Shown: positions 2,890-52,200 of the stretch, one piece after another
Layout of the letters: each line of letters begins with the position of its first letter
How positions within the stretch are numbered: position 1 is the stretch's first letter
Source of the DNA: a virus
Lineage: Duplodnaviria; Caudoviricetes
Reading direction: 5' to 3' (one strand)
IMG/VR virus record: IMGVR_UViG_3300035208_002804
Location: 32,001 to 96,000 of that record
DNA length: 64,000 bases
Translations under genes and position numbers: made by a program
The notes under the pieces: model-generated
Told to the model about the DNA's origin: nothing
Databases searched by the model: none
What the model saw: only the letters and a program-made list of their open reading frames with translations

Positions 2890-3918
2890 ATGCCTATAGT
2901 TTCAATTACGATCTCTACATGGGACCGGGTTAATGATTTAAAGGTGTGTGTTGATTCAATTTTAAATCAGTCATATATAAAGAATAATGATCGGGATACA
3001 TGGGAACTTATTATTGTTGATAATGGAAGCAAAGATGGAACTCGTCAATATTTATCAGAATTAGAAAGTGTAATTGGCCACAATCTTAAATATATAATAT
3101 TGTCTCATTCTAATTATACTGCAATGCAAACACTTAATTTTGCATTTAAAATGGCATCTGGTGAATTTGTAATTGTTCTTGATGATGATGCATTTATTGA
3201 AAGTAATGATGCTATAGAGTCCATGGTTGAAATAATGAATCAGAATTTTAATTGTGCAATCATTGGTGCAAATGTTCAATTTGAAAAAGAAAGATTCGAC
3301 GGAACATTATCTCAAATGCCAATACGATGTCTTGATGGAAGATTTTTAACAACTGGAGAAATATTATCATTGTCGGATGTTATACCATATTATGAATTTC
3401 ATGGTGCATTTGCAATGTTTAGAAATGAAATATTAGAATTGGTTGGATATTATGATAATGATTTTAATATTTATATAAATGAATTTGATTTAGCATGTAA
3501 AGTTTTGGATAGAGGCAATGATGTTTTATTTGCCAAAAATATAATTGCGAAACATAAAGATCAGTCGTCTATAAAATGTAATAAGAAAAATATAAATTAC
3601 ATTATAAATTATGATACTGTTGTTACACGTAGTTTCACTGGGATATTTAATCGAATTAAAGTTGTTTCTATTAGATTACCAATGCTATATGTTATGCATA
3701 TGATAAATATGATTAAATATTGTAGTAAATTAAGAATTTTTATGTTTACTATTCAAACCGGAGTTGAATATTTTAGGGCGCTTTTTAGATGTGTTTTTCC
3801 TGATAAACATTATAAATTTAGAGATAAAAAATTACAAGAATATATGCAAGTATCATTATATAATAGTTTTAAGAAGAATACAACAGATTTTATAAGGAAA
3901 ATATTTAATGACAATTAA
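2890..3918 (+). CDS. Glycosyltransferase family 2
   Basis: VSITISTWDR, IIVDNGSKDGT, DxD-type LDDDA, E-x-DL acceptor region. Confidence 0.9.
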   Translation: MPIVSITISTWDRVNDLKVCVDSILNQSYIKNNDRDTWELIIVDNGSKDGTRQYLSELESVIGHNLKYIILSHSNYTAMQTLNFAFKMASGEFVIVLDDDAFIESNDAIESMVEIMNQNFNCAIIGANVQFEKERFDGTLSQMPIRCLDGRFLTTGEILSLSDVIPYYEFHGAFAMFRNEILELVGYYDNDFNIYINEFDLACKVLDRGNDVLFAKNIIAKHKDQSSIKCNKKNINYIINYDTVVTRSFTGIFNRIKVVSIRLPMLYVMHMINMIKYCSKLRIFMFTIQTGVEYFRALFRCVFPDKHYKFRDKKLQEYMQVSLYNSFKKNTTDFIRKIFNDN

Positions 3919-4867
3919 AAAAGTGGGGGTCGCACTGTCAACTTGGAATAGAGCAGAAGATCTTGATAGATGTCTTGATTTATTATATAAACAGACATAT
4001 GGACCATTTGACGTATATGTAATTGATAATTGTAGTAATGACACGACAAGATGTGTTTTAGATAAATATTATAATGAATATAATAATTTTGAATATTATA
4101 TAATGCCGCATTCTAATTTTAGTGCTATATATACAATTAATTTAGCACTGAAAGAATTGGATAATGATTACATTATTATTCTTGATGATGATACTTTTCT
4201 TGAAGATCCATATACTATTGAGAAATTAGTTAATACTGCCGATTCGGATGAAAATATCGCAATAGTAGCAACTAATGTTCGTGATAATTTTGGAAGAGCA
4301 TCTTTAATTTTAAAGACCCTATTATTTGATGCCGTTGACTATAATGATATATCTAATGATGATGTTTTTGATATAGATGATTTTAGCGGTGCGTGTGCAT
4401 TGTTTAGAAGTGATCTTGTTGGCCCGGAATTTTATGATGAATCTTTTAAAATTTATTGGAATGAACCAGATCTTGCTATTCGAATGGTGGCAAAAGGCTA
4501 TCGTGTTGTAGTTAATCAATCAATACGAGTTACTCATGGAAGTGATGTTGGTAGAGAATCGTGTAGATCATTTTACTATGGATCTCGAAATACATTTAGA
4601 TTAATGACAAAGTTATTATCAAGAAAACGAAGTTTGATTTTAATGGGAATATTAATTCCATTTCATTTAAAACGATATTTATCTATGAGAAAGGAAAGTA
4701 AATTTTATGAATATTTACCAAAAGTGGTGTATTGTTATATTGAAAATTTAGTGCGCGGAATTTTTGTAGATCGTATACAATTTAATGATGTTAATGTTCA
4801 AGCCCGTGTTTATAATACATATATAAAATATTATCTCAAAGAAATTATGTTTGGTTTACAGGTATAA
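3908..4867 (+). CDS. Glycosyltransferase family 2 (paralog of upstream gene)
   Basis: STWNR, VIDNCSNDTT, ILDDDT, YWNEPDL. Confidence 0.9.
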   Translation: MTIKKVGVALSTWNRAEDLDRCLDLLYKQTYGPFDVYVIDNCSNDTTRCVLDKYYNEYNNFEYYIMPHSNFSAIYTINLALKELDNDYIIILDDDTFLEDPYTIEKLVNTADSDENIAIVATNVRDNFGRASLILKTLLFDAVDYNDISNDDVFDIDDFSGACALFRSDLVGPEFYDESFKIYWNEPDLAIRMVAKGYRVVVNQSIRVTHGSDVGRESCRSFYYGSRNTFRLMTKLLSRKRSLILMGILIPFHLKRYLSMRKESKFYEYLPKVVYCYIENLVRGIFVDRIQFNDVNVQARVYNTYIKYYLKEIMFGLQV

Positions 4868-5519
4868 TATTAATATGAAAATCAAGTTTTATATTAAATT
4901 TGCATATCATTATTTTTATGATAATATTTACACACGATTAGTAAGTAATTTTTATCTGTTGAAATGGAAAATATATAAATATAAATTATTTAATAAATGT
5001 GATAAACCAACCATATTATATATATCGTTTATAAATGGAGGGGGGTTATTAAAACATATTAATGAACTTATTACTGGAATGAAAGATACTTATGATGTGT
5101 GGGTTTTTACCAATGATAATTTTGTGACTCATTATGATGGTAATAAAAAGATTATTTTTAAGCATGATTTGGACTTAAATTCTGCTATTCGATGTGTTAA
5201 TCCAGACATTATTCATGTTCATCAATTAAGTAAAACCTTATGGGAAATTCCATTTATCGAATGGGAGAAATCGATTATAACAATACACGATATGTATTAT
5301 GTGTGCCCATATTTTTTCATGACCGAATGCATGAATGATAAATTTTGTCATCCATCATTGTGTAATATTGAATGGAGAAACGAAATGCATGGGATATTAG
5401 TGCGATGTAAATCTATTATTTGTCCATCAGTTGCAATGAAAGACTTACTTTTATTTTATTATCCAGATATTGAGAATAAGATAACTATTATAGAACACGG
5501 AATTAATAAATTATGTTGA
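4851..5519 (+). CDS. GT-B/GT4 glycosyltransferase, N-terminal half
   Basis: GGGLLKHI, PDIIHVH, ITIHD, IICPS, IIEHGI. Confidence 0.75.
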   Translation: MVYRYNINMKIKFYIKFAYHYFYDNIYTRLVSNFYLLKWKIYKYKLFNKCDKPTILYISFINGGGLLKHINELITGMKDTYDVWVFTNDNFVTHYDGNKKIIFKHDLDLNSAIRCVNPDIIHVHQLSKTLWEIPFIEWEKSIITIHDMYYVCPYFFMTECMNDKFCHPSLCNIEWRNEMHGILVRCKSIICPSVAMKDLLLFYYPDIENKITIIEHGINKLC

Positions 5520-6028
5520 ATGTTGCATATGTTGGTGCGTTATATCACCCAAAAGGATTAAAAACATTATATTATCTAACAAATGATTTTACGGTTCCTG
5601 TTAATTGGTTTATTTTTGGTTGGATAACAGATCATTATAAACAATATCAATGTGATAATGCCTTTGTTTATGGTCCTTATAGAACTACTTGTGAATTATA
5701 TGATTTATTAGATTATTATAATATTGACATTGTTATTATGCCTAATGAATGTCCAGAATCATTTTCTTATGTATTGAGTGAAATATGGGAATATAAAATA
5801 CCGGTTCTTGGAACAGATCGTGGGTCAGTTTGTAGTAGAATTGAACAAACTGGATGTGGATGGATATGTAACCCAAGTAAAATGGGAGAAAAGTTAAAAT
5901 GGCTCAATGATAATCCAGATGAGATAGATACTGTGATAAATAGATTATATGATTATGATGTAACTTCAATCGAAAAAATGCATACTGATTATAAAAATTT
6001 ATATGCTAAATTGATACATGATTCATAA
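5513..6028 (+). CDS. GT-B/GT4 glycosyltransferase, C-terminal half
   Basis: VGALYHPKG, ESFSYVLSE (E-x7-E), PVLGTDRG. Confidence 0.8.
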   Translation: MLNVAYVGALYHPKGLKTLYYLTNDFTVPVNWFIFGWITDHYKQYQCDNAFVYGPYRTTCELYDLLDYYNIDIVIMPNECPESFSYVLSEIWEYKIPVLGTDRGSVCSRIEQTGCGWICNPSKMGEKLKWLNDNPDEIDTVINRLYDYDVTSIEKMHTDYKNLYAKLIHDS

Positions 6029-6088: not shown

Positions 6089-7597
6089 ATGATTACTGCA
6101 TTGGTTGTCATGTATAATTCAGAATCATTTCTTGACAATCGATTTAAATCTCTTTGGTTTTGTGATGAAATTATTGCAATTGATTTAGGTAGTAAGGATA
6201 ATTCTATTAATATTGCTAAAAAATATAATTGTATTATTAAACACAATGAATGGGTTCCAATGGGTGAACTTGCATGGATCAATTTTGTTAAAGATGCAAC
6301 AAATGATTGGATAATAATTGCTGATCCTGATGAAATTATTCCTAACAAACTTGCTAATAAGATAATATCCACGTTAAATAATATTAGTGATAATATTGGT
6401 ATAATTGGTCTTCCATATAGACATCATTTCATGGGTAAAAAAGTAAATATTTCTATGTGGAAAGAAATACATTATATAAATAAAATATTCCATAGAGATA
6501 GAATTACATTACATGGCCTTGTTCATTCTCCGTTTTGTTTAAATGAACCACATAATATTTTAAATTTACATATGTCAGTTGATGAGTCTGATGTTGTTTT
6601 ACATTATCCAGGAGAGAAACTTTCTAAATTATGTAAAAAATTGTTTAGATATTCATTAATGGAAGGAAAATCAAAATATGAAAGAGGTGAACGATGGACA
6701 ATTAAATCGTGTTTAAAGTATATTGCAGCGAGTATATGGTATAATTTAAAAAAGTCTGATGTTTTTCATAACCTAAAATTGATATATCTTCCATTTATGT
6801 TTATTGGTTATGATATATTGTCTCAAATTTCTTTATTTATGTATCAATTTAAAAACAAACATGATAAACTTGTTGAAATTCTTCAAATAGAACCAACACG
6901 AAGATGTAATATGAATTGTAAACATTGTAATCATAAAGATAACAATGGTTATATTTCAATTGATACCTTTGAAAAAATATTATCTAAACACGCTAATGTA
7001 GAAATAATTAAAATTCAAGGTCTTGGAGAACCACTATTGCATCCAAACATTGGTAAATTAATTGAACTATCTCATAAACACAATTCGAAAGTAATGATTA
7101 TAACAAATGGATCTGTTCCTATTCCAAGCGGAATAGATCAATTGATTATTTCACTTGAAACGGTAAATCCATTAAAATATAAAGAAATTCGTAATTATGA
7201 TTTAGAAAAAGTATTATTAAATATTAGATATATTGCAACAAAACAAAAAGTGATTGCCAATTGCGTTCAGACAAATTTAACAAATGAAGATGATGTTGAA
7301 GAAGTAAAAGCATTTACTGAATCAATTAATGGAGAATTATGGATTACCCCAATGGAAGTGTGGTATGATAATTTACATAAAGAATATCCTGAATCATTAA
7401 AAAATGTAATTGACGCGTATATAACTCATAATATAAACTTGAAGTTTAGAAACTCAACATGTCGATGGCTAACAAAAAGATATTTGTATTATGATTATCT
7501 TGGAAGAATGCACCCATGTTGTATTAGAATGACTGATGAATATCTTGTAAACAGTGATTTTGATTTTACTAATTGCTGTAAAACATGTCCTATGTAA
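6089..7597 (+). CDS. GT2-like glycosyltransferase fused to a radical SAM/SPASM-twitch domain
   Basis: N-terminal DLGSKD and DPDE motifs; C-terminal CNMNCKHC (CxxxCxxC), GLGEPLL, ITNG and a Cys-rich tail (C...PCC...CCKTC). Confidence 0.8.
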   Translation: MITALVVMYNSESFLDNRFKSLWFCDEIIAIDLGSKDNSINIAKKYNCIIKHNEWVPMGELAWINFVKDATNDWIIIADPDEIIPNKLANKIISTLNNISDNIGIIGLPYRHHFMGKKVNISMWKEIHYINKIFHRDRITLHGLVHSPFCLNEPHNILNLHMSVDESDVVLHYPGEKLSKLCKKLFRYSLMEGKSKYERGERWTIKSCLKYIAASIWYNLKKSDVFHNLKLIYLPFMFIGYDILSQISLFMYQFKNKHDKLVEILQIEPTRRCNMNCKHCNHKDNNGYISIDTFEKILSKHANVEIIKIQGLGEPLLHPNIGKLIELSHKHNSKVMIITNGSVPIPSGIDQLIISLETVNPLKYKEIRNYDLEKVLLNIRYIATKQKVIANCVQTNLTNEDDVEEVKAFTESINGELWITPMEVWYDNLHKEYPESLKNVIDAYITHNINLKFRNSTCRWLTKRYLYYDYLGRMHPCCIRMTDEYLVNSDFDFTNCCKTCPM

Positions 7598-8243: not shown

Positions 8244-8972
8244 ATGTTTCATCTGTTTAGAAAAGATACTTCATTTAAACCATATGCTGAAGTTAAGAGT
8301 TTATCTGAAGCATATGAAGTGGCAATGAATAATGTAATATCTAATCACAGGGAAGTTGTTACCGAAGATGGTGAAATAACATGGCAATCAAATCCATTTA
8401 CTATCTGTGTAACACAGCCGTGGAGAACCAACTTTATTCATAAGTTTTCGCCATATGGTAAAATGTTCTATCAAAAATATGCAAAAGACATTTTAAATGG
8501 CCCTGATGGAGATTTTATTTATGATTACCACAGTCGCCTGTTTCATTACAAGAAGCATTTTTATGATGATATAATCAATGAATTTGTTCCAACTGAAATC
8601 TATGGTCAGATATTAGGTGAAGAGATAGATCAAATCCAGTATGTGATTGATAAATTGAACGAAGAGCCTAATTCACGTAGAGCAGTGGCAATTACTTGGC
8701 AACCTCCAGTAGATACAAAAATAAAAGATGTTCCATGTTTCCAGTATGTTCAATTCTGGAAAGAAGGTAATAGATTGAATGGATTTTTTTCAATCCGTAG
8801 CAATGACGGGCTTTTAGCCATGCCACAAAATATTTTTGGGTTTTATAAATTACAGCGACATGTAGCAAAATATACAGATTCAAACTGTGGAAAAATGTGG
8901 TATCAACCAATTTTACCCCACATTTATGCTATTAGAGATATGAACGAACTCAAAAAATGGATCAGAATTTAG
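8244..8972 (+). CDS. thyA: Archaeal-type thymidylate synthase (dUMP-specific family)
   Basis: SRRAVAITW, VPC catalytic Cys, RSND, Asn in PQN at the dUMP-specificity position, HIY. Confidence 0.8.
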   Translation: MFHLFRKDTSFKPYAEVKSLSEAYEVAMNNVISNHREVVTEDGEITWQSNPFTICVTQPWRTNFIHKFSPYGKMFYQKYAKDILNGPDGDFIYDYHSRLFHYKKHFYDDIINEFVPTEIYGQILGEEIDQIQYVIDKLNEEPNSRRAVAITWQPPVDTKIKDVPCFQYVQFWKEGNRLNGFFSIRSNDGLLAMPQNIFGFYKLQRHVAKYTDSNCGKMWYQPILPHIYAIRDMNELKKWIRI

Positions 8973-13695: not shown

Positions 13696-14889
13696 ATGAT
13701 AGAAGTTAATGGATCGTTTGCTGATGCTATTGTTTTTAATGATTTGGTTGAAGATGGAGCAATCAAACAGATTACTGGATTGTGTAATAATGAGGCAAGT
13801 AAGGGTAGCAAAATTCGCGTGATGAGTGATATTCATGAGGGAAATGGATGCACTATTGGCACCACAATGACGATTCATGATCGTGTTACACCTAATTTGG
13901 TTGGGGTTGATATTGGATGTGGTATGCTCTGTGTAAAATTAGAAGATTCTGAAATAGACTTCAGATTACTTGATGCTGTAATTCATAAAAATATTCCTTC
14001 TGGATTTAACAGCAGAGAGACGATTTATACCCATCATGGAGACATTGATCTTAACAATCTGCACTGTGTTGCTCATATGAATAAATTGGATCGAGCATAT
14101 TATCAGTTGGGAACACTTGGTGGAGGAAATCACTTTATTGAGATTGATAAAGGATCTGATGGATCGTATTATCTTGTAATTCATTCTGGATCTAGGAACA
14201 TTGGCAAGCAAGTTGCAGAGCACTATCAGAAATTGGCAATTAACAGTATGTATTCATATAGGGAAAACTATCGTAAAATGATTATTGATGAGTTAACAAG
14301 TAGTGGGAGATCTCGTCTGATTGGTGAGAGATTGGGTGTATTACCTCATATTATTGATGATCTTGCATATTTGACAGGTAAGGATATGGAAAATTATCTT
14401 GATGATATGAACCTGTGTCAATGGTATGCAGACATCAATCGAAAAATTATAGCGGAGATAATTATCAATGAGATGAAATTTACTTCTGGTGGTATGTTCA
14501 CTACAATTCATAATTATATTGATTGTGAAAATATGATTTTGCGTAAGGGGGCGATTTCGGCACAAAAGGACGAAATGGTTATTATTCCGATGAATATGAG
14601 AGATGGCAGCATTATTGCAATTGGAAAGGGTAATTCCGATTGGAATTTTAGTGCTCCTCATGGTGCTGGTAGAATTATGGGTCGCAGAGAGGCAAAGCGC
14701 ACGTTTAAACTGGAAGACTTTCAGGAGTCTATGAAGGGAATTTATACGACTTCGGTTAGTCAGAACACTATTGATGAAAGCCCATTTGTATATAAGCCAA
14801 TTGAAGAAATTATAAAATATATTGACGATACAGTTGATATTGTTGATGTTATTGAACCAGTGTATAACTTTAAAAATGATGGACGATAG
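13696..14889 (+). CDS. rtcB: RtcB RNA ligase
   Basis: MSDIH, VGVDIGCG, GTLGGGNHFIE, HSGSR, HNYID, RKGA, PHGAGR, DESP-x-x-YK. Confidence 0.95.
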   Translation: MIEVNGSFADAIVFNDLVEDGAIKQITGLCNNEASKGSKIRVMSDIHEGNGCTIGTTMTIHDRVTPNLVGVDIGCGMLCVKLEDSEIDFRLLDAVIHKNIPSGFNSRETIYTHHGDIDLNNLHCVAHMNKLDRAYYQLGTLGGGNHFIEIDKGSDGSYYLVIHSGSRNIGKQVAEHYQKLAINSMYSYRENYRKMIIDELTSSGRSRLIGERLGVLPHIIDDLAYLTGKDMENYLDDMNLCQWYADINRKIIAEIIINEMKFTSGGMFTTIHNYIDCENMILRKGAISAQKDEMVIIPMNMRDGSIIAIGKGNSDWNFSAPHGAGRIMGRREAKRTFKLEDFQESMKGIYTTSVSQNTIDESPFVYKPIEEIIKYIDDTVDIVDVIEPVYNFKNDGR

Positions 14890-15495: not shown

Positions 15496-15783
15496 ATGCT
15501 CAAATGTAATAAATGCCATCTTATTTTTAAAGAGTTGATTGATAAGTGCCCTGAATGTAATGATGAACTTATAGTGATGTGTGAAAATGATAAGATGGGG
15601 TGTAGTTGTGGAGTTGTGGCTGGATTAAAGGTATGCGAGATATGTGGAGAATTTATTTGTCCAACATGTGGGTGTCACTCGGTAACTGCTGTTTCTCGGG
15701 TTACAGGATATTTACAAGATGTAAGTGGTTGGAATCTTGCAAAGAAAACCGAGTTAGTTAATCGACACAGATACGAGGTATAA
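15496..15783 (+). CDS. Stand-alone glycyl-radical/Zn-finger domain of class III ribonucleotide reductase
   Basis: Several CxxC pairs, then CPTCG...SRVTGYL...WN-x-x-K-x-x-E-x-x-x-R, the NrdD C-terminal glycyl radical signature. Confidence 0.88.
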   Translation: MLKCNKCHLIFKELIDKCPECNDELIVMCENDKMGCSCGVVAGLKVCEICGEFICPTCGCHSVTAVSRVTGYLQDVSGWNLAKKTELVNRHRYEV

Positions 15784-16007
15784 TGATCTCGGTTTTTACG
15801 TTACCTGTTTGTCCAAATTGTGATGACTTAAAGGAAAAGTTAATTAAAATGGATTTACAATTTGAGACATATAATCTTGAGGATGCTGATGTGCGGATTG
15901 ATTTATTAATGAAGTCTGTTACGTTGGTGGAAGCACCTATTGTTGAAATTAATGGGAGATATATGAGTGGAAAGGAAGCGCTTGTGGAGTTGAATATACT
16001 TGAGTAA
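15783..16007 (+). CDS. nrdH: NrdH-like glutaredoxin
   Basis: CPNC redox motif, EAPIVEING cis-Pro motif, position inside the RNR operon. Confidence 0.8.
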   Translation: MISVFTLPVCPNCDDLKEKLIKMDLQFETYNLEDADVRIDLLMKSVTLVEAPIVEINGRYMSGKEALVELNILE

Positions 16008-19000
16008 TGTTAGGGTTAGAAAGGAAGATGGATCTATTGAAAGTTTTGATAAGAATAAGATTATTGAATCAATACGAAAAGAAACTGGTTGTGTTGGCAA
16101 AATCATAGAGGAAATTGTAGATGAAGTTTATACAACATTAAAAGTTATTCGATTAGATCCTGTAACCGGACCTCTTATTCGAGAATTTATTAACACAAAG
16201 TTTTTAGAACATGGTATGGACGATTGTCGCAGAAAATATACTCGTGTTGGAATGCCAGTATATGATGCCAGAAAAACAGATCTTGGGTATGGAAAGGGTG
16301 ATAATGCCAATCTTAATAGCATGTGCCCTGAGACCGGGCATAAAAGAAAAGCAGATCAACTTTCAAAAGAACAGTATCTACTATCATTTCCAAATTACAT
16401 ATCCGAAGCCCATTTAAACGGAGATGTTCATATTCATGACCTGGAATACTTCGGAAATCGAATTTTTTGTCAAGATCACGACATGCGATATTTTTTTAAG
16501 CATGGATTTATAGGTGATGGCACAGGACATCAAACATCAATTGCGGGACCGGCAATGAGACCAGAAGTTGCAATATTACATGCTGTAAAGGTTCTTGGAT
16601 CGGCACAGACAAATTGCATGGGCGGGCAGGGTTTAATGGCATTTTTAACATTTTTGTCGCCTTATTTTAAAAATGAACCTTATAAAGTTTATACTCAATG
16701 TATGCAAGAATTGTGCTATGAACTCACTCAAATGCTTGTTGCAAGAGGGGGCCAGTCAACAAGGTTCGATGAAGTTTTAGTAATTAAAGACGATAATAAT
16801 ATTTCACTTATTAAAATTGGTGAGTTTTGTCATAAATATTTGTCTGAAGATGGCACTTATATCTTTGATGGTGATGAAAAGAAATATGAAATCTTATCAT
16901 TGAATCGAAAAACAGGCACTTTAGAGTGGAAAAAAATTAATGGTGTATATGTTCATAAATCAGAATCACAGTTAAAAGAAACGACATTATCAGATGGACG
17001 ATCAGTAGTAACGACATCAGATCATTCTCTCTTTACACTTGATGATAATTGTAATATTGTTGAGATTACTCCATCAGAAAGACCAAATACCATATTAACA
17101 GTTAAAAACATTCCCTTCGCTGGAAAACCTTTTGATAAAGATTTGATGTTCCTTATCGGGGCCTGTATTGGTGATGGAAATTTATATGCAAATAATGGAA
17201 TTTATGATAGTGCGATTAATATTAATGTTTCATCGGTTGATGTTTACAAAAGAATACAATCTATTGTAAAATCTTATGGTGTATCAGATTGTGTGTTTAA
17301 ACCGGTTAATGGTTCGTGTAATTTATATCATTCGCAATTCCAAACAACGGGTATACCATATATTACAGAAATAGGATACCGAGCCCCTAATAAAAAAATA
17401 CCAGATGTATTATTATCTGGAGATGATGAATCTTTATATGAATTACTTAATGGTTTGATTTCTACAGATGGGGATGTGTCCCGTAGACGATATGAATATA
17501 ATACTACTTCTAAAAAACTTGCAATACAAATTGAATTTATTCTTCGTAGACTTGGATTAGATTATTCAATATCATCTTCAATGAAAAGTAGTAATTTTAA
17601 GAGAAATTATCCAGTCTATGTAATTCGTATATCTGCGAGTTGTTCTTCCAATATCAAAATTACAAATTTATCAAGGCATATTGAATCTTTGAATGGACCA
17701 AATCAACAAAAACACGATTTCAGAACTATAAAACCGTTATTAAAACAATATTTAGGGCGTGGATTTTATAGATTTGGACACAGTGAATTATTGGCAAATA
17801 ATAGAAAACTAAAACGTGAACATATAGAAGATTTGCAAGAATCTATTCCTGATATTTGGAATAAGGTTAAAAATATATTGCCAATGGAAGTTAAATTAAT
17901 TAACTCTTATCCAGATGAAGAATTTGTGTATGATATTGGTGTAGATGACAATGAGAATTTTGTGCTACATAATGGAATAATCTGTCATAATACAGTATTT
18001 AGTAGCGTACAATTAACTCCTGGGGTTCCCGATATATGGAAAAATGTTCCTGCTGTTTATAAAGGAAAACTTCATGATGGTGAGGAATCAATACTTGATG
18101 TATATGGTAATTATGAAAAAGAAGTTAGATTACTGTTTAAAGCAATAATGGAAGTGATGATAGAAGGGGATTATGCAGGAAAACCATTTTATTTCCCAAA
18201 ACCTGAAATTACATTAGAAGAATCATTTATTCAAAATCTTGATAATGAAGTTAATGATGCTCCCACGTATAGGGATTTATATATTAAAGCATTTGAATTA
18301 GCAAGTAAATTTGGAACTCCATATTTTGATAATCTGTTACCGAGTTGGAGAAAAACGGGAGGAATCGAATGTTATCAGTGTTGCGCGTACAGATTTACTT
18401 CTGATTCCGATTCTGATGATTTTAATGACAAATTAAATTTTGTAAATGGAAATCATTTTAGTATGGGTGCAATGCAGGTTATGACTATTAATTTTCCACG
18501 ACTTGCTTATATAGCATGTAGTGAAAATAATGGAATTAATATTGATTTATATTTTGAAAATTTATGTAAAAAACAAATTGACTTGTGTTGTGATGTGTTT
18601 TTGTTAAAATCAAAAATGGTTGGTGAAACGAAGGCATCCTTTTTACAACAGGTTCATGGTGGTAAAATATTGGTCGATTTTAAAGATCTTGTTTATACAA
18701 TAGGCGTTATTGGGATGAACGAGGTGTGTGAAATCTTATATGGTGCTAATATTTACGTAGACAATGAAGTTACTAAAAAGGCAATGAAATTTGTTATGAA
18801 AATGAAAGATTATTGTGCTGAAAAATCTAATGAACTTGGAATTACAATTGCATTTGCAAGAACACCAGCAGAAACAACAGCACAAAGATTTGCCGTGTTA
18901 GATTTGCTTAATTATGGGGATGCTCATAAATTTGTGAAAGGTGATGTAAAAGAAGCAATAAAAAAATATGCTGAAACTGGTAGCAGAGACTTGCCAATTT

Positions 19001-19251
19001 ATTATACAAATGGAACCCATTGCCCTGTGGATGCTGACATAGCATTAAGTGATAAAATTAAGATAGAGCAGGCATTTTTCCCAATTCTAGATGGTGGTAA
19101 CATTTGTCATATATTTTTGGGTGAAGCGGCACCAGATCCAAGGGGTCTTATGGATATGACTTTAAAAATTTGTAAATCTACTAATCTTGGATATTTTGCA
19201 TTCACAAAAGATTTCACAATTTGTAATAATGGATATAGATATTATGACTGA
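16000..19251 (+). CDS. nrdD: Anaerobic (class III) ribonucleotide reductase catalytic subunit with ATP-cone and intein; lacks the glycyl radical domain
   Basis: ATP-cone (VRKEDGSIESFD), HIHDLEY, GGQG, ARGGQ/TVFSS, YQCC, TPAET, YYTNGTH, GGNICH; ends at TICNNGYRYYD. Confidence 0.93.
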   Translation: MSNVRVRKEDGSIESFDKNKIIESIRKETGCVGKIIEEIVDEVYTTLKVIRLDPVTGPLIREFINTKFLEHGMDDCRRKYTRVGMPVYDARKTDLGYGKGDNANLNSMCPETGHKRKADQLSKEQYLLSFPNYISEAHLNGDVHIHDLEYFGNRIFCQDHDMRYFFKHGFIGDGTGHQTSIAGPAMRPEVAILHAVKVLGSAQTNCMGGQGLMAFLTFLSPYFKNEPYKVYTQCMQELCYELTQMLVARGGQSTRFDEVLVIKDDNNISLIKIGEFCHKYLSEDGTYIFDGDEKKYEILSLNRKTGTLEWKKINGVYVHKSESQLKETTLSDGRSVVTTSDHSLFTLDDNCNIVEITPSERPNTILTVKNIPFAGKPFDKDLMFLIGACIGDGNLYANNGIYDSAININVSSVDVYKRIQSIVKSYGVSDCVFKPVNGSCNLYHSQFQTTGIPYITEIGYRAPNKKIPDVLLSGDDESLYELLNGLISTDGDVSRRRYEYNTTSKKLAIQIEFILRRLGLDYSISSSMKSSNFKRNYPVYVIRISASCSSNIKITNLSRHIESLNGPNQQKHDFRTIKPLLKQYLGRGFYRFGHSELLANNRKLKREHIEDLQESIPDIWNKVKNILPMEVKLINSYPDEEFVYDIGVDDNENFVLHNGIICHNTVFSSVQLTPGVPDIWKNVPAVYKGKLHDGEESILDVYGNYEKEVRLLFKAIMEVMIEGDYAGKPFYFPKPEITLEESFIQNLDNEVNDAPTYRDLYIKAFELASKFGTPYFDNLLPSWRKTGGIECYQCCAYRFTSDSDSDDFNDKLNFVNGNHFSMGAMQVMTINFPRLAYIACSENNGINIDLYFENLCKKQIDLCCDVFLLKSKMVGETKASFLQQVHGGKILVDFKDLVYTIGVIGMNEVCEILYGANIYVDNEVTKKAMKFVMKMKDYCAEKSNELGITIAFARTPAETTAQRFAVLDLLNYGDAHKFVKGDVKEAIKKYAETGSRDLPIYYTNGTHCPVDADIALSDKIKIEQAFFPILDGGNICHIFLGEAAPDPRGLMDMTLKICKSTNLGYFAFTKDFTICNNGYRYYD
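16756..17991 (+). mobile_element. Intein (412 aa) with LAGLIDADG homing endonuclease
   Basis: Begins with Ser after ARGGQ; TSDHS block B; LIGACIGDG and LLNGLISTDG; ends VYDIGV...HNGIICHN followed by Thr. Removal restores GGQTVFSS. Confidence 0.92.
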
Positions 19252-19477
19252 TATTTTAGAAGAAATAAATGACATTAAAAAATATGCATTGAATGAAGAC
19301 GGTGCAAGGATTCTTCGCATTACTAAAGCACTTGAACGAAATCATAAAAAATTTGGAGCAGCGTATTGCCCATGTAAAGTTGATAAAATCCCAGAAAACA
19401 TTTGCCCGTGTTATGATTTTACTGACACTGGAATCTGTAAATGTGGCCTTTATCAAAATGTAGTTAAAGAAGAATAA
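19244..19477 (+). CDS. Ferredoxin:thioredoxin/disulfide reductase catalytic-subunit-like protein
   Basis: CPC...CPC...CKCGLY motif set; ATG at 19244 overlaps the nrdD stop. Confidence 0.85.
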   Translation: MTDILEEINDIKKYALNEDGARILRITKALERNHKKFGAAYCPCKVDKIPENICPCYDFTDTGICKCGLYQNVVKEE

Positions 19478-20145: not shown

Positions 20146-20467
20146 AAAAGTTAAAATTATTAAATTCATAGATTTTATTGATGATGAGAGACTATTTGAT
20201 GATGAAAATGGAATAATTTGGAAATTAATTAGACCACTTGTTGTTGATGATTTTACAATTGTATTTGATTTTATCGGAATTGTATCAGTATCTCCGCGTT
20301 TTTTAAGCCAGGTTGTTACAAAACCACTAATTATTTTATCGGTTGAAGAATATTGTAAAAATATAAGATTTAAAAGAATACAAAATGAATTGACGGAACG
20401 ATTGCTTATTAATTCTATTAATAACAATATACAGAAATATTCATCACCAAGGCTCATGCTGAAATGA
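20117..20467 (+). CDS. STAS-like (DUF4325-like) protein
   Basis: IVFDFIGIVSVSPRFL resembles the DF-x-G-x-x-x-x-S-x-x-F pattern; real start probably the internal MCEK. Confidence 0.5.
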   Translation: MYVEFSIMCEKVKIIKFIDFIDDERLFDDENGIIWKLIRPLVVDDFTIVFDFIGIVSVSPRFLSQVVTKPLIILSVEEYCKNIRFKRIQNELTERLLINSINNNIQKYSSPRLMLK

Positions 20468-20841
20468 CGATACCAACTTCTTTTCACGTTAATACGGCGG
20501 TTAAAGCGGCCAGCGATAGTGTTCTCTATAGATTTAAACATGGGGCTGTTTTGTATGATAAATCGGGTAAGATTATTTCAACGGGTAGAAATATTTCTCA
20601 TTACAGGCCCGGATTGAAAAAGTATGGTTATAAAAGTCTTTTTCTTCATGCTGAATCTGATGCCATACTAAAGACGAACATCGAATGTCTCAAAGGAGCA
20701 AATTTACTTGTAGTGAGAGTTGGAAAACACAAACTATGCAATTCTAAACCATGTAAACATTGTCTTGGATTAATTCTTCAAACCGGAATCAAACATGTTT
20801 ACTATAGTGATGTTAGCGGAGAAATCGAAAAGTTATTTTAA
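20464..20841 (+). CDS. Cytidine/dCMP deaminase-fold protein
   Basis: HGAVL, GRN, HAE, SKPCKHC. Confidence 0.85.
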   Translation: MTIPTSFHVNTAVKAASDSVLYRFKHGAVLYDKSGKIISTGRNISHYRPGLKKYGYKSLFLHAESDAILKTNIECLKGANLLVVRVGKHKLCNSKPCKHCLGLILQTGIKHVYYSDVSGEIEKLF

Positions 20842-27591: not shown

Positions 27592-28245
27592 TTGAAGGTA
27601 AAATTGACATTAGAGATAATAATTGATTCAAGGGAAAATGAATTTATTAAGAAGTGGCTACCTAAAGAATTTCCTGATGTAAAATTCGAAGTAAAAACGC
27701 TAATCGAAGGGGATTACCGTTCAGAACACGTAATTTTCGAAAGGAAGCGAATAGATGATTTGTGGTCTTCGATTCATGATGGGCGCTTTAGATCTCAAGT
27801 TTCCCGTATGACAACTCACCAATGTGATAAAGTTGTTGCATATCTTATCGTCGGTTCTATTGACGACTTCATTTACAAGATGAAGAAACTTCACATGAAA
27901 GCCGATGAAAACACTCTACACGGAGCAATAGCATCTCTTTTAGTTAGGGATAACATTAGAGTCATTCATTGCACTAATGAAAAACATGGACTAAAGGAAA
28001 TGGTTCGTGTTATGCAAAAAATAGAAGAAGACAATGAACTTAATATTCCCGCTGTTCGTGATCTGGACATGTTATTTGCTAGATTACTTAATGTTCCTAA
28101 AGATACATGGTTTGGAATTAAAGAACTTCATGGATCATCACTTTCTCATCTCTGTAGTTTATCATCCAAGGATTTCACCAAAGTAAAAGGAATTGGTCCA
28201 AAACGTGCAAAAGACATAGTAAATTTTTTAAAAAATGGATGGTGA
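27592..28245 (+). CDS. ERCC4/XPF-family structure-specific nuclease with HhH
   Basis: IIDSRE, GDY, FERKRIDDL...SIHDGR, VKGIGPKRA. Confidence 0.9.
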   Translation: MKVKLTLEIIIDSRENEFIKKWLPKEFPDVKFEVKTLIEGDYRSEHVIFERKRIDDLWSSIHDGRFRSQVSRMTTHQCDKVVAYLIVGSIDDFIYKMKKLHMKADENTLHGAIASLLVRDNIRVIHCTNEKHGLKEMVRVMQKIEEDNELNIPAVRDLDMLFARLLNVPKDTWFGIKELHGSSLSHLCSLSSKDFTKVKGIGPKRAKDIVNFLKNGW

Positions 28246-49298: not shown

Positions 49299-52200
49299 TT
49301 ACAATCTGCTGGTTGTTGGTTGTGTTGTTGGTAATATACTTCTTACAATCTGTTCAATCATAGCAACTAAATCTGTTTTTACTTTTGATGCAATAACATT
49401 CGAATCATCACCTTGCACATTCACCGAAATTTCTACTTTCTGTGGCTGTGTAGTTGATTGACTGATAATTTGTTCTTGTTTTAATGTTTCTGCCGTTTTA
49501 ACTAGTTGAATACTTGTAAATTCATTTTCATTTGTTTTAGAAACAAAACTATAATTTCCAGAATTATTTTCTGGATTTACATTATATGTTTCACTTCCAG
49601 TCATTAATTTATTGTAAAATGCTGGTAATCCTTCGTTTGATACAGCATCTAATTCTCCATTAACGATTGAAAATCCTTTTGCTGTTGTTATCATTCCATC
49701 GTTTAATGATTGTAATGTTGCTGGTTGAGTTATATCATCTTCATTTACTCCGGTTGAAATTTTTGCTGTTGTTTCTGGAAGTAACATGTTTGCAAGAGCA
49801 GGTCCAATTACTGGAACAATACCAGTCATAGCAAGACTCAATAATGCTGCTGGATCTTGTGTTACTTCTTCTGCTAATTTTCCACCCATAACACCAAGAG
49901 ATTCACCAGTTCCAATTAAACCGGTTCCAGCACCAAATATACTTCCAACATCAAGATTCGCAAGCGATCCAATTAAATCATAAATACTACTGTTTAAATC
50001 TGCAATTCCACCACTAACTTCTAAATTTCCAAGCGGAGTTGGTAATGAAACATTTGTTCCACGAATCATGTCTGAAACTGCTGTATTACCACCCTTCAGT
50101 TTATTCCAGAACCCGTTATACTGATCGGACATACCAAGTCCTTTGACTGCTTGCTGTGCAACAAAACCCGGCATAACACTGAAATCCATTAACCCTTTAT
50201 TCTGGTTTAATGTGTCTCTCATCTGTTCTTCGTTTAATCCAAATCTTTTGCCCCAGACTCCCATTCCACGACCATAACCAGACTGAATTAAATTACTAGT
50301 GAATATACCAGATGCGTTGTTATATTTTCCCTTTCCTGTTCCTTGGGTAATCTCATCAAGAGGAACGCCATTCATGAAATTTTCATTAGCAATACCACCT
50401 TCTGCTAAACCAGAAAGGACAACTGCTTCTGGTGCCCCTGCAAGTTTCATTAAATCGAGTGTTGTGGCACCAACACCACCAACTGCTTTACCTGCCCAAG
50501 ATGCTGCTGTATTTCGTGCTGGTCCACTTCCAACAACTCTTGAAATCATTGCTGGTAGCACTCTACTACCTTGCTCCATAACCCGCTCTCCTCCGCCAGT
50601 GAGAGCATTCATTGCAATTTGATTATTTAATTCAAGTGCTGCGGAATATGGATCTCTATTTTGATTTACATTAGTTCCAACTGATAAAAGATCAACAACA
50701 TCAAGAACCCCAATCTCTTTTCCAGTTAACTGATCTTTCCCTTTTACTGGTGATGTAGCACTAAACTTACCTTTATTGAACAACCGATCTACTATAGAAG
50801 GAGATTGTTTGCTTGGCATTTCAGGATATTCGTATTTACCGTTGACGAATTTGTCCCAAAATCCAGCATTACGAACTCCTGTTGGACCATAATCTTTTAC
50901 ATCACCAGGTGCTCTATAATATGCATGTTGTGCAAGTGAATCAGAATTTAAAATCCCACCAAGCGATCTTCCACCATATGCACTTGCAAGATTGCCACCC
51001 ACTGTTGTTGCTGCTCCCTTAACTGCACCAGCACCTTTTTGGAGCATTTCAACAACTTTACCATTGTCAAGCGTTAACAATGCAAGTCCAAGATCTTTGA
51101 TTACGTTTCCTGCTGTTTCAGCACCGTTCATTAATGCTTTTAATGATTCCATTGCACTATGAGCAATACTATCAATTGCTGCACCTACAGTTTGTTTAAA
51201 TGATTCAAATGCAGTCTGAAGTAGATTTGCCACCGCACCAGTATATGACGATGGTAATGTTGACGGGTTTGGGTTAGCATTTGGATTTGGATTTTCATTA
51301 ACTTGTGGATTTGGATTTACATTTTCGTCAGGGCGCCAGAAAGATTCTTCATTTAAATTATCTTCTGGTGATGGCGAAGGGTTTGGATTTACACCCATTC
51401 CATTACCGGTCATTCCGTTTGGATTACCAAGGAACCCATAAATCCAGCGCTGGGGAAGTCCCATGTCAAATGGCATACCTCCTTTTTCATCGTTACCGTT
51501 TTGCCAGCCGTCTTTCCAGTTTCGAATGTAAACGCCGATTCCATCAGATTCAGCAGCAGCAACTAAAACTTTAGCAGATGATTTACTTGCAGTTGCATTC
51601 TCATCAGTTTTGTTGTAGATTTTAAATCCAAATGTATCAGTATCAGATTTGTTAATTGCATAACCGGAAACAGACATTCCACTACTGTTTTGTAATAGTC
51701 CTATTGAACCGCCGGTTGCAAATTTGTTTAATTGATCAAGGGTGTTTTTACCAAGTTTACTTGCAGATCTCTTGTTGATGACATATTCTCCTTCTTCTAC
51801 ACGAACGGTTTTGTCATCAATTGCCGCTGTATTTGGACCACCAATTGCACCACCTTCAGCAAACATTTTTTCCTGTGTTATTGGATTAACACCAGAAAGA
51901 ACTGCTCCAGCAGATGAAATTGGTTTTAACCACCAAGGCGCTTCCTGCCCACTTATCCATTGATACGCCTGGCCAACTGCTTCGAGTGCGATAACTGCTA
52001 ATCCTGCTTTTAATGCAATACCATTCATTCCAAGATTCAGAGCATCGACTGCCATATTAACTTGTTTTAATGCTTTTACTGCACCGGCTGCTTGTCCAAA
52101 CCCACTCAAGAACAATGATACTCCAGATGTTAATGGTTGTAATAATAAGGTTATACCATACATTTGAGCAGCAATCTTAATTAAACCAGGATGATCACCA

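What the first reader, a model, noticed from the sequence alone, without database searches (positions are those of the whole stretch)
15496..19477. Split class III ribonucleotide reductase with the glycyl radical domain as a separate upstream gene, plus its own redoxin and ferredoxin-disulfide reductase
Seen: NrdD stops at TICNNGYRYYD, where the Zn-binding and glycyl radical region should begin. That region (multi-CxxC + SRVTGYL) is a separate 95-aa gene two genes upstream, so this is not a frameshift artefact. The operon also has a CPNC glutaredoxin and a CPC/CPC/CxC FTR-type subunit. Established: glycyl radical enzymes are cleaved at the Gly by O2; YfiD/GrcA is a spare-part radical domain for PFL; Methanosarcina class III RNR uses NrdH and a ferredoxin disulfide reductase. 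Inference: a replaceable radical subunit for an RNR, coupled to host ferredoxin, carried by a virus. No NrdG activase is seen in the window. I recall similar small stand-alone proteins in Methanomicrobiales genomes, so the split may be host-derived; this needs checking.
Basis: partly seen in the sequence, partly recalled or inferred. Interest (0 to 1): 0.75.

Follow-up and report, generated by a model that had tools for sequence, protein, structure and literature searches.

The report
Virus-encoded two-piece anaerobic ribonucleotide reductase
A 136-kb tailed virus, probably of methanogenic archaea, encodes its oxygen-sensitive DNA-precursor enzyme in two pieces, a large catalytic body and a separate 95-residue protein carrying the radical glycine, next to two small electron-transfer proteins; the same split runs through a whole order of methanogens, and I found no paper that describes it.

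Summary
Window 15496-19477 (+) holds four overlapping genes. They encode a 95-aa Zn-ribbon/glycyl-radical protein (SRVTGY), a CPNC NrdH-like redoxin, and an NrdD body that stops just before the Zn/glycyl-radical domain. This body carries a 412-aa LAGLIDADG intein. The fourth gene encodes a 77-aa FTR-type reductase.

The split is real and conserved:
- Four other viral contigs share the operon.
- Methanomicrobiales genomes (130 of 151 sampled) have the same truncated body, with the small protein at an unlinked locus.
- Other Halobacteriota have fused NrdD.
- The small-protein family has over 100 clusters at 50% identity.

The virus has no NrdG. Sampled Methanomicrobiales genomes do, and one related virus encodes its own.

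At least five complete viral genomes carry only the small protein.

Most likely this is an obligate two-subunit class III RNR. It would be activated by host NrdG and reduced through NrdH and a ferredoxin:disulfide reductase. "Spare part" is the wrong word here, because no full-length NrdD exists to rescue. Replaceability remains an inference.

This scan has already found split NrdD on other DNA, including the Methanomicrobiales case (e1-5243305). I found no description in print. New here are the linked viral operon, the intein and the viruses that carry only the small protein.

The parts
15496..15783 (+). Small radical subunit (95 aa). It has an N-terminal Zn ribbon (C4, C7, C18, C21), a second Cys/His cluster (C29, C36, C38, H61), the canonical NrdD Zn ribbon (C47, C50, C55, C58), and the glycyl-radical motif S67-R-V-T-G71-Y (nt 15694-15711).
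   Evidence: PF13597 positions 507-562, E 5.9e-11. TIGR02487 527-580/581. Over 37 homologues, C18, C36, C47, C50, C55, C58, H61, S67, R68, T70, G71 and Y72 are invariant. AF2 mean pLDDT is 86.5.
15783..16007 (+). NrdH/glutaredoxin-like redoxin, 74 aa, with active site C10-P-N-C13. Its start overlaps the stop of the small gene (TAATG).
   Evidence: PF00462 E 1e-6. TIGR02196 E 5.9e-9 and TIGR02194 (NrdH) E 5.9e-5, both below their cut-offs. A homologous redoxin lies directly upstream of the NrdD body in Methanomicrobiales genomes.
16000..19251 (+). NrdD catalytic body precursor (1083 aa, TTG start). It has an ATP-cone (residues 5-82) and the class III RNR barrel. Conserved are F-C156-Q-D and the finger-loop C791-Y-Q-C-C-A-Y. 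It ends 8-10 residues before the point where fused relatives continue with CPxCG...SRVTGY.
   Evidence: PF13597 E 1e-110, covering profile positions 1-515 only. TIGR02487 390.7 bits (cut-off 326). PF03477 E 2.3e-7. Alignment with fused and split relatives. An AF2 model of the 71%-identical intein-free L087 body matches class III RNR structures at Foldseek E 2e-25 to 1e-15.
16756..17991 (+). Intein of 412 aa (S253...H663-N664) inserted after ARGGQ. The +1 extein residue is T665. Two LAGLIDADG motifs are present (LIGACIGDG at nt 17152-17178, LLNGLISTDGD at nt 17443-17475).
   Evidence: PF14890 E 2.2e-19, PF14528 E 1.6e-9, TIGR01445 and TIGR01443. Intein-free homologues L086, L087 and L133 are exactly colinear across the site.
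19244..19477 (+). Minimal ferredoxin:disulfide (FTR catalytic-chain type) reductase, 77 aa, with C42-P-C44, C54-P-C56 and C65-K-C67. Its ATG overlaps the nrdD stop (ATGACTGA).
   Evidence: PF02943 31.1 bits, above the cut-off of 22. A profile of the viral family matches PDB FTR catalytic chains and the FTR-type chains 7pwe and 4tpu at E 1e-10 to 1e-13, with all six Cys aligned.

Best explanation
The four genes encode a complete catalytic and reducing module of a two-subunit class III (glycyl-radical) ribonucleotide reductase of the archaeal, thiol-dependent type.

Shown by sequence:
- The body is a full NrdD barrel with an ATP-cone and the conserved active-site cysteines, but it lacks the Zn/glycyl-radical domain.
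- The 95-aa protein is that domain, plus about 45 extra Cys-rich residues that fused relatives lack.
- An intein has to splice out of the body.

Inferred mechanism:
1. A host NrdG activase puts the radical on Gly71 of the free small subunit. The virus has no NrdG; Methanomicrobiales genomes do, and a related virus encodes its own.
2. The small subunit docks its Gly loop into the barrel next to the finger-loop cysteine, as the covalently attached domain does in one-chain NrdD.
3. After each turnover, the active-site disulfide is reduced by the CPNC redoxin.
4. The redoxin is re-reduced by the 77-aa FTR-type [4Fe-4S] reductase using host ferredoxin, as described for the Methanosarcina barkeri enzyme.

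The likely role is to raise dNTP supply for replication of a 136-kb, 30% G+C genome in an anaerobic host. The virus also encodes thymidylate synthase and dCMP deaminase.
For: - The two pieces are complementary. PF13597 covers positions 1-515 on the body and 507-562 on the small protein, and these are the only NRDD matches in the whole virus record.
- An alignment with fused relatives places the break about 8 residues before CPxCG...SRVTGY.
- The operon order small-redoxin-body recurs in four other viral contigs, L086, L087, L098 and L101.
- The small proteins of these five viruses form one clade, SH-aLRT 98.
- In 5 of 5 Methanomicrobiales genomes examined, there is exactly one truncated body and one small gene, hundreds of kb apart, plus an NrdG2 above its cut-off.
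- In the order-wide sample, 130 of 151 genomes have NRDD matches. Among the matches listed, every body match that reaches the C-terminal part of the profile stops at position 500-519, apart from one extra full-length copy. The other 21 genomes lack both pieces.
- All 17 Methanomicrobiales genomes in the phylum sample have the stand-alone small ORF, while other Halobacteriota have fused forms.
- Twelve metal ligands, or 11 plus a variable twelfth, and SRxTGY are conserved across 37 homologues at 45% mean identity.
- The best 109 cluster representatives are all 39-208 aa long.
- The related virus L101 encodes an NrdG2 (137.3 bits, cut-off 131.15) about 4.7 kb downstream of its operon.
- The body model matches class III RNR structures.
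Against: - No physical test of docking or radical transfer was possible. The tools do not co-fold two chains, and a spliced or fused construct may not be submitted.
- The isolated small-subunit model found no significant structural match.
- The virus's host is not identified. Its 30% G+C is far below that of known Methanoregula or Methanospirillum, so the presence of a compatible NrdG in the host is assumed.
- Activity of the intein is inferred from motifs only.
- The reductase is shorter than characterised FTR/FDR chains.
Confidence: 0.8

Rival explanations
1. Spare-part or booster reading. The small protein is mainly a consumable replacement, GrcA-like, that re-arms oxygen-cleaved or radical-depleted reductase bodies, including the host's, rather than simply being the stoichiometric partner of the viral body.
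For: - Ten viral records, five of them 100% complete by CheckV (four with direct terminal repeats), carry only the small gene and no body.
- Two of these small proteins nest among the host small proteins.
- A separate group of Halobacteriota genomes keeps a stand-alone small protein beside full-length NrdDs.
- From general knowledge, glycyl radical enzymes are cleaved at the Gly by O2.
Against: - In this virus and in Methanomicrobiales there is no full-length NrdD to rescue, so the small protein must be the regular subunit.
- Nothing here shows turnover or oxygen damage.
- An earlier scan check priced the renew-and-trade reading low (e1-909946).
Confidence: 0.12
2. Decoy or regulator. The viral small protein competes for host NrdG, or blocks host bodies to redirect or shut down host dNTP synthesis, and the viral body is inactive or works differently.
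For: Small-only viruses exist. This virus has no activase.
Against: - The radical motif and all active-site residues of the body are strictly conserved.
- The operon also brings the reductant chain, which only makes sense for a working enzyme.
- A related virus brings its own NrdG.
Confidence: 0.05
3. Artefact or decay. The split is an assembly or frameshift error, a pseudogene, or the two pieces are re-joined by protein trans-splicing.
For: An intein is present in the body, and contigs from metagenomes can carry errors.
Against: - The C-terminal piece lies upstream of the body, with another gene between them.
- The same layout occurs in four independent viral contigs and, unlinked, in more than 100 genomes.
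- There is no split-intein signature at the body's C-terminus or the small protein's N-terminus.
- Conservation is strong.
Confidence: 0.02

Closest known systems
One-chain class III RNR NrdD with activase NrdG (phage T4 1H78/1H79, Thermotoga maritima 4COI/4U3E, Prevotella copri 8P23, S. thermophilus 9D3X)
   Same: Shared features are the barrel fold, ATP-cone, finger-loop cysteine motif, Zn-Cys4 ribbon and RVxGY radical loop. The sequence and model matches are strong.
   Different: Here the Zn/glycyl-radical domain is a separate polypeptide, encoded upstream of the body (unlinked in the cellular relatives). It has about 45 extra Cys-rich residues. No activase is encoded by this virus.
Methanosarcina barkeri class III RNR with NrdH-like redoxin and ferredoxin:disulfide reductase (Wei et al. 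2015, Biochemistry 54:7019, PMID 26536144; cited from reference lists and my own knowledge, since the paper was not readable here)
   Same: The NrdD subtype is the same archaeal one, about 50% identical to fused Halobacteriota NrdDs. It is likewise associated with a small CPxC redoxin and an FTR-type reductase.
   Different: To my knowledge the M. barkeri enzyme is one chain. All five fused Halobacteriota relatives of this subtype whose C-termini I compared have the radical domain attached. Here it is detached, the reductase is a minimal 77-aa form, and the set is virus-borne.
GrcA/YfiD of E. coli and Y06I of phage T4, the autonomous glycyl-radical cofactors for pyruvate formate-lyase
   Same: Each is a small stand-alone protein that carries only a glycyl-radical domain, and a phage carries one too.
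   Different: Those belong to the PFL Gly_radical family and rescue a full-length enzyme after O2 cleavage. This protein belongs to the NRDD family and has no full-length enzyme to rescue. A 2026 review states that spare-part proteins are known only for formate lyases (PMC13450708).
Split class II RNR NrdJa/NrdJb of Pseudomonas aeruginosa (Crona et al. 2015, cited in PMC9669993). Also the homing-endonuclease-split class I NrdA of phage Aeh1, recalled from memory.
   Same: An RNR catalytic chain is naturally divided into two genes, with a C-terminal Zn-finger part on the second chain.
   Different: The RNR class and the role of the detached part differ. There the detached part carries the reducing C-terminal tail; here it carries the radical cofactor itself.

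Membership tests
Class III ribonucleotide reductase (NrdD) | NrdD barrel detectable by family models, and a fold like solved NrdDs | tested here: met
   PF13597 E 1e-110 and TIGR02487 390.7 bits, above the 326.35 cut-off. The model of the 71%-identical L087 body matches 9d3x, 8p2c, 1h79 and 4col at E 2e-25 to 1e-15.
Class III ribonucleotide reductase (NrdD) | Finger-loop catalytic cysteine and a partner cysteine in the barrel | tested here: met
   C791-YQCCAY and F-C156-QD are invariant in 34 aligned split and fused relatives. Their assignment to catalytic roles is by homology.
Class III ribonucleotide reductase (NrdD) | C-terminal Zn site and RVxGY glycyl-radical loop on the same chain as the barrel | tested here: not met
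   The body ends at profile position 515 of 562. The Zn ribbon and SRVTGY lie on the separate 95-aa protein.
Class III ribonucleotide reductase (NrdD) | A dedicated radical SAM activase, NrdG | tested here: inconclusive
   There is none in the 136-kb virus record. It is present above cut-off in 5 of 5 Methanomicrobiales genomes and in the related virus L101 (137.3 bits). The actual host is unknown.
Class III ribonucleotide reductase (NrdD) | Glycyl radical formed and NTPs reduced | not testable with these tools
   This needs EPR and an activity assay.
Thiol-dependent archaeal NrdD with NrdH and ferredoxin:disulfide reductase (M. barkeri type) | Operon partner redoxin with CxxC, plus an FTR catalytic-chain homologue with CPC/CPC/CxC | tested here: met
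   CPNC redoxin with PF00462. PF02943 scores 31.1 bits, above the cut-off of 22. All six Cys are invariant, and the profile hits PDB FTR chains at E 1e-10 to 1e-13.
GrcA/YfiD-type spare-part protein | Stand-alone glycyl-radical domain that coexists with, and rescues, a full-length enzyme of the same kind | tested here: not met
   There is no full-length NrdD in the virus. Only one extra full-length copy appeared among the listed matches from 151 Methanomicrobiales genomes. The protein belongs to the NRDD family, not the PFL Gly_radical family.
Class 1 intein with LAGLIDADG homing endonuclease | N-terminal Ser/Cys, C-terminal His-Asn, +1 Ser/Thr/Cys, splicing blocks and two LAGLIDADG motifs | tested here: met
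   S253, H663-N664 and T665. PF14890, PF14528, TIGR01445 and TIGR01443 all match. The gap in the alignment with intein-free homologues is exact. Splicing itself was not tested.

The most novel reading that the evidence does not exclude
The small subunit is a consumable 'radical cartridge', the limiting and oxygen-labile part of the enzyme. Archaeal viruses exploit this by bringing extra cartridges. This virus brings one together with its own body and reductant chain. At least five complete viral genomes bring one alone, to plug into the host's body. That would make it the first spare-part or exchangeable radical cofactor protein outside the pyruvate formate-lyase family, and a virus-host traded one.
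Probability: 0.2. Interest if true: 0.85.

Novelty: new variant of a known kind. Interest (0 to 1): 0.68.

Why it matters
All solved and characterised class III RNRs, and as far as I know all glycyl radical enzymes, carry the radical glycine on the catalytic chain itself. Before activation that domain has to swing out of the barrel to reach the activase.

A natural enzyme in which this domain is a free protein changes two things. Activation, docking and oxygen damage become a matter of subunit exchange. It also bears directly on a question left open in a 2026 review: whether spare-part proteins exist for glycyl radical enzymes other than PFL.

The viral operon is a compact, co-inherited four-gene cassette. 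It links the small protein genetically to its body and to its electron donors, which the dispersed host genes do not do. That makes it a convenient starting point for reconstitution.

There are practical consequences too:
- Automatic annotation currently calls the small protein an RNA polymerase subunit/Spt4 or 'hypothetical'.
- Automatic annotation may read the body as truncated.
- Metabolic reconstructions of an entire order of methanogens could therefore wrongly score RNR as broken.

Tried and rejected
Genomic context came from the search for related loci, the genome search and the fetch from genomes instead.
- Structure search with the small-subunit model gave nothing. Foldseek against the PDB had no hit at E <= 0.001, only weak NrdD rows, and VIA-align gave no Z >= 2. 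The family assignment rests on sequence.
- I considered the GT2-radical SAM fusion (6089-7597) as a hidden activase and rejected it. Its NrdG2 score is 20.8-21.8 bits against a cut-off of 131. Its best matches are SPASM/MoaA-type maturases, and it sits in a glycosyltransferase cluster.
- I considered a split intein or trans-splicing join and rejected it. Neither free end shows an intein signature, and the gene order is permuted.
- I considered a frameshift or read-through and rejected it because of the gene order.
- I tried to decide whether the viral genes derive from Methanomicrobiales. The viral clade lies outside the five sampled host bodies. With a distant outgroup the split forms are not one clade, but long branches make the root unsafe. 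This is left open.
- Wei et al. 2015 (PMC4697749) is not held, so the M. barkeri comparison rests on reference lists and my own knowledge.
- Literature searches for 'split NrdD', for NrdD with Methanomicrobiales, and for an autonomous glycyl radical protein for RNR found no description.
- The host of the virus was not identified. There are no tRNAs in the window, and the virus's G+C is 30%.
Full report
**What is there**

The window is bases 32001-96000 of a 136,274-bp IMG/VR virus record, which CheckV rates 95% complete. Its G+C is about 30%. It encodes a tail tube protein, PKD-domain proteins, an ERCC4/XPF-type nuclease, RtcB, thymidylate synthase and dCMP deaminase. It is therefore a tailed virus, most likely of an archaeon.

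On the + strand, 15496-19477 holds four genes.
- **15496-15783:** a 95-aa protein that matches the NrdD family model only at its last 55 positions (PF13597 507-562, E 5.9e-11; TIGR02487 527-580/581).
- **15783-16007:** a 74-aa glutaredoxin/NrdH-like protein with a CPNC motif.
- **16000-19251:** a 1083-aa NrdD with an ATP-cone and PF13597 positions 1-515, interrupted by an intein.
- **19187/19244-19477:** an FTR catalytic-chain homologue.

The junctions are TAATG, an 8-nt overlap and ATGACTGA, so this is one operon. The reductase most likely starts at 19244, giving 77 aa. These are the only NRDD matches in the whole virus record.

**The break point**

I aligned the body with intein-free viral homologues, with Methanomicrobiales homologues and with fused Halobacteriota NrdDs.
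- The intein is S253-N664, with T665 as the +1 residue. It is inserted after ARGGQ and has two LAGLIDADG motifs.
- Fused relatives continue after '...FTRDMT.C.DGY' with about 8 residues and then 'CPNCGS..VE.LSRVTGYLQ.VSGWN..K.QEL.DR.RY'.
- The viral and Methanomicrobiales bodies stop just before that point, and the small proteins supply exactly the missing part.
- The small proteins also carry about 45 N-terminal residues with two more Cys/His clusters that fused proteins lack.

Over 37 homologues at 45% mean identity, C18, C36, C47, C50, C55, C58, H61, S67, R68, T70, G71 and Y72 are invariant. C4, C7, C21 and C29 are nearly so.

The body keeps FCQD and CYQCCAY, which are invariant in 34 relatives. 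An AF2 model of the 71%-identical intein-free body of L087 has pLDDT 79 and matches class III RNR structures at E 2e-25 to 1e-15. An AF2 model of the small protein is confident (pLDDT 86.5) but found no significant structural neighbour.

**It is not a one-off**

Four other viral contigs (L086, L087, L098, L101) have the same order of small gene, redoxin and body. Two of them also have the reductase, and none has the intein.

The closest relatives of the body in a 5.8-billion-protein set, at 52-72% identity, all lack the radical tail. Of the best 120, 80 are tail-less and 40 are fused, the fused ones coming from Methanothrix, Methanoperedens and others.

The small protein has stand-alone relatives of about 120 aa in Methanoregula, Methanospirillum, Methanolinea and other Methanomicrobiales. 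In all 80 genome loci retrieved it sits in an open frame of 107-153 aa, with no NrdD body within 8 kb.

Five such genomes each contain:
- exactly one body (profile 1-510/515, an open frame of about 730 aa, with a CPxC redoxin gene directly upstream);
- one small gene hundreds of kb away;
- an NrdG2 above its cut-off;
- two FTR-type genes.

All of these are unlinked.

In a sample of 151 genomes of the order, 130 have NRDD matches. Among the matches listed, every body match that reaches the C-terminal part of the profile stops at position 500-519, apart from one extra 569-aa full-length copy. Many are interrupted by one to three inteins. The remaining 21 genomes have neither piece.

In a sample of 121 genomes of the phylum, all 17 Methanomicrobiales have the stand-alone small ORF, and the other lineages have fused NrdDs of about 600-820 aa.

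A profile of the small proteins, searched against 1.84 billion cluster representatives, finds 141 at E <= 1e-10. The best 109 are all 39-208 aa long, and the first fused NrdD appears only at E 7.5e-13.

**Viruses with the small subunit alone**

Of 45 viral loci, 28 have a stand-alone small ORF, and only four of those have a body nearby. I searched ten of the remaining records whole. Each has only the small gene. Five are rated 100% complete, and four of those have direct terminal repeats.

In a tree of the small proteins, those of the five operon-bearing viruses form one clade (SH-aLRT 98). Two proteins from small-only viruses nest among the host sequences. All stand-alone forms separate from the tails of fused enzymes.

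In the tree of the bodies, the window groups with L087, L086 and L101, outside the five sampled host bodies. L098 branches separately. The root is unsafe because of long branches, so the direction of transfer stays open.

**Activase**

The virus has no NrdG. Its only radical SAM domain is fused to a GT2 glycosyltransferase and resembles SPASM/MoaA-type enzymes.

The related virus L101 does encode an NrdG2 (235 aa, 137.3 bits, cut-off 131.15) about 4.7 kb downstream of its operon. This shows that the split system is used together with a glycyl-radical activase.

**Interpretation**

The simplest reading is an obligate two-subunit class III RNR.
1. The free small subunit receives the radical from the host's NrdG.
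2. It docks its Gly loop into the barrel.
3. The active-site disulfide is recycled by the CPNC redoxin and the FTR-type reductase, drawing on host ferredoxin.

The sequence facts are shown. Steps 1-3 are inferred from homology with one-chain NrdD and with the M. barkeri NrdD/NrdH/FDR system (Wei et al. 2015, which I could not read here).

Being detachable, the subunit could still be replaced after oxygen cleavage, and the small-only viruses make a booster role worth testing. That part remains inference.

**What is known**

[quoted passage not shown] A 2022 analysis of RNR extensions describes split class II enzymes but places the radical domain of class III on the C-terminus of the catalytic chain (PMC9669993). 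Searches for a split NrdD found nothing.

Within this scan, split NrdD has been reported many times on other DNA. This includes the order-wide Methanomicrobiales case (e1-5243305), which my own searches reproduce independently.

Specific to this finding are:
- the viral operon that links the small subunit, redoxin, body and reductase;
- the permuted gene order;
- the intein;
- the enlarged three-cluster Zn module of the small subunit;
- the complete viruses that carry the small subunit alone.

Noticed in passing
L147:6464-6820(-), L150:5834-6163(+), L155:5982-6338(+) (genomes G204, G232, G225; also G211, G265): Halobacteriota genomes of about 40% G+C carry a 109-118-aa stand-alone NrdD-type radical-domain protein (QLSRVTGY[IL]S.VSGWN) with a different N-terminus. 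The same genomes keep full-length NrdDs, so these are true spare-part candidates. In G232 the gene lies just upstream of a 799-aa class II RNR-like gene. In G225 an FTR-type 96-aa gene lies about 550 bp away on the other strand.
   Followed up: partly
L101:15254-15961 (+): A related virus with the same split operon encodes its own NrdG2-type activase (235 aa, 137.3 bits against a cut-off of 131.15) about 4.7 kb downstream. The window's virus and L087's record have none.
   Followed up: yes
window 6089-7597 (+), within the cluster 2890-6028: This is a fusion of a GT2 glycosyltransferase with a radical SAM/SPASM-like domain (502 aa). It follows two clear GT2-like genes (2890-4867) and two further ORFs (4851-6028) that were not searched against any family library. 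It is not an NrdG. L086 has a free-standing radical SAM of the same type at 3277-4308.
   Followed up: partly
window 8244-8972, 13696-14889, 20464-20841, 27592-28245 (+): A nucleotide and nucleic-acid metabolism set surrounds the operon: a thymidylate synthase-like gene, RtcB RNA ligase, dCMP deaminase and an ERCC4/XPF-type nuclease with HhH. Genes whose N-terminal sequences resemble the window's thymidylate synthase-like gene also flank the operon in L086 (6682-7407) and L098 (12426-13163); these two were not run against any family library.
   Followed up: partly
genomes (for example G152, G148, G124): Methanomicrobiales NrdD bodies are intein hot spots. Open frames reach 1200-2020 aa, and the NRDD profile is broken near positions 53 and 259-263. 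The window's intein sits at a third site, profile position 157. Viral relatives of 1004-1479 aa carry one or two inteins as well.
   Followed up: no
window 49299-56183 (-): This is a 2294-aa ORF whose only family match is a weak GNAT acetyltransferase hit (residues 219-305). It lies in the structural gene block, next to PKD-domain proteins.
   Followed up: no
public annotation of the small protein family: JGI names some of the 120-aa Methanomicrobiales small subunits 'RNA polymerase subunit RPABC4/transcription elongation factor Spt4', presumably because of the Zn ribbons. This is a likely mis-annotation.
   Followed up: no
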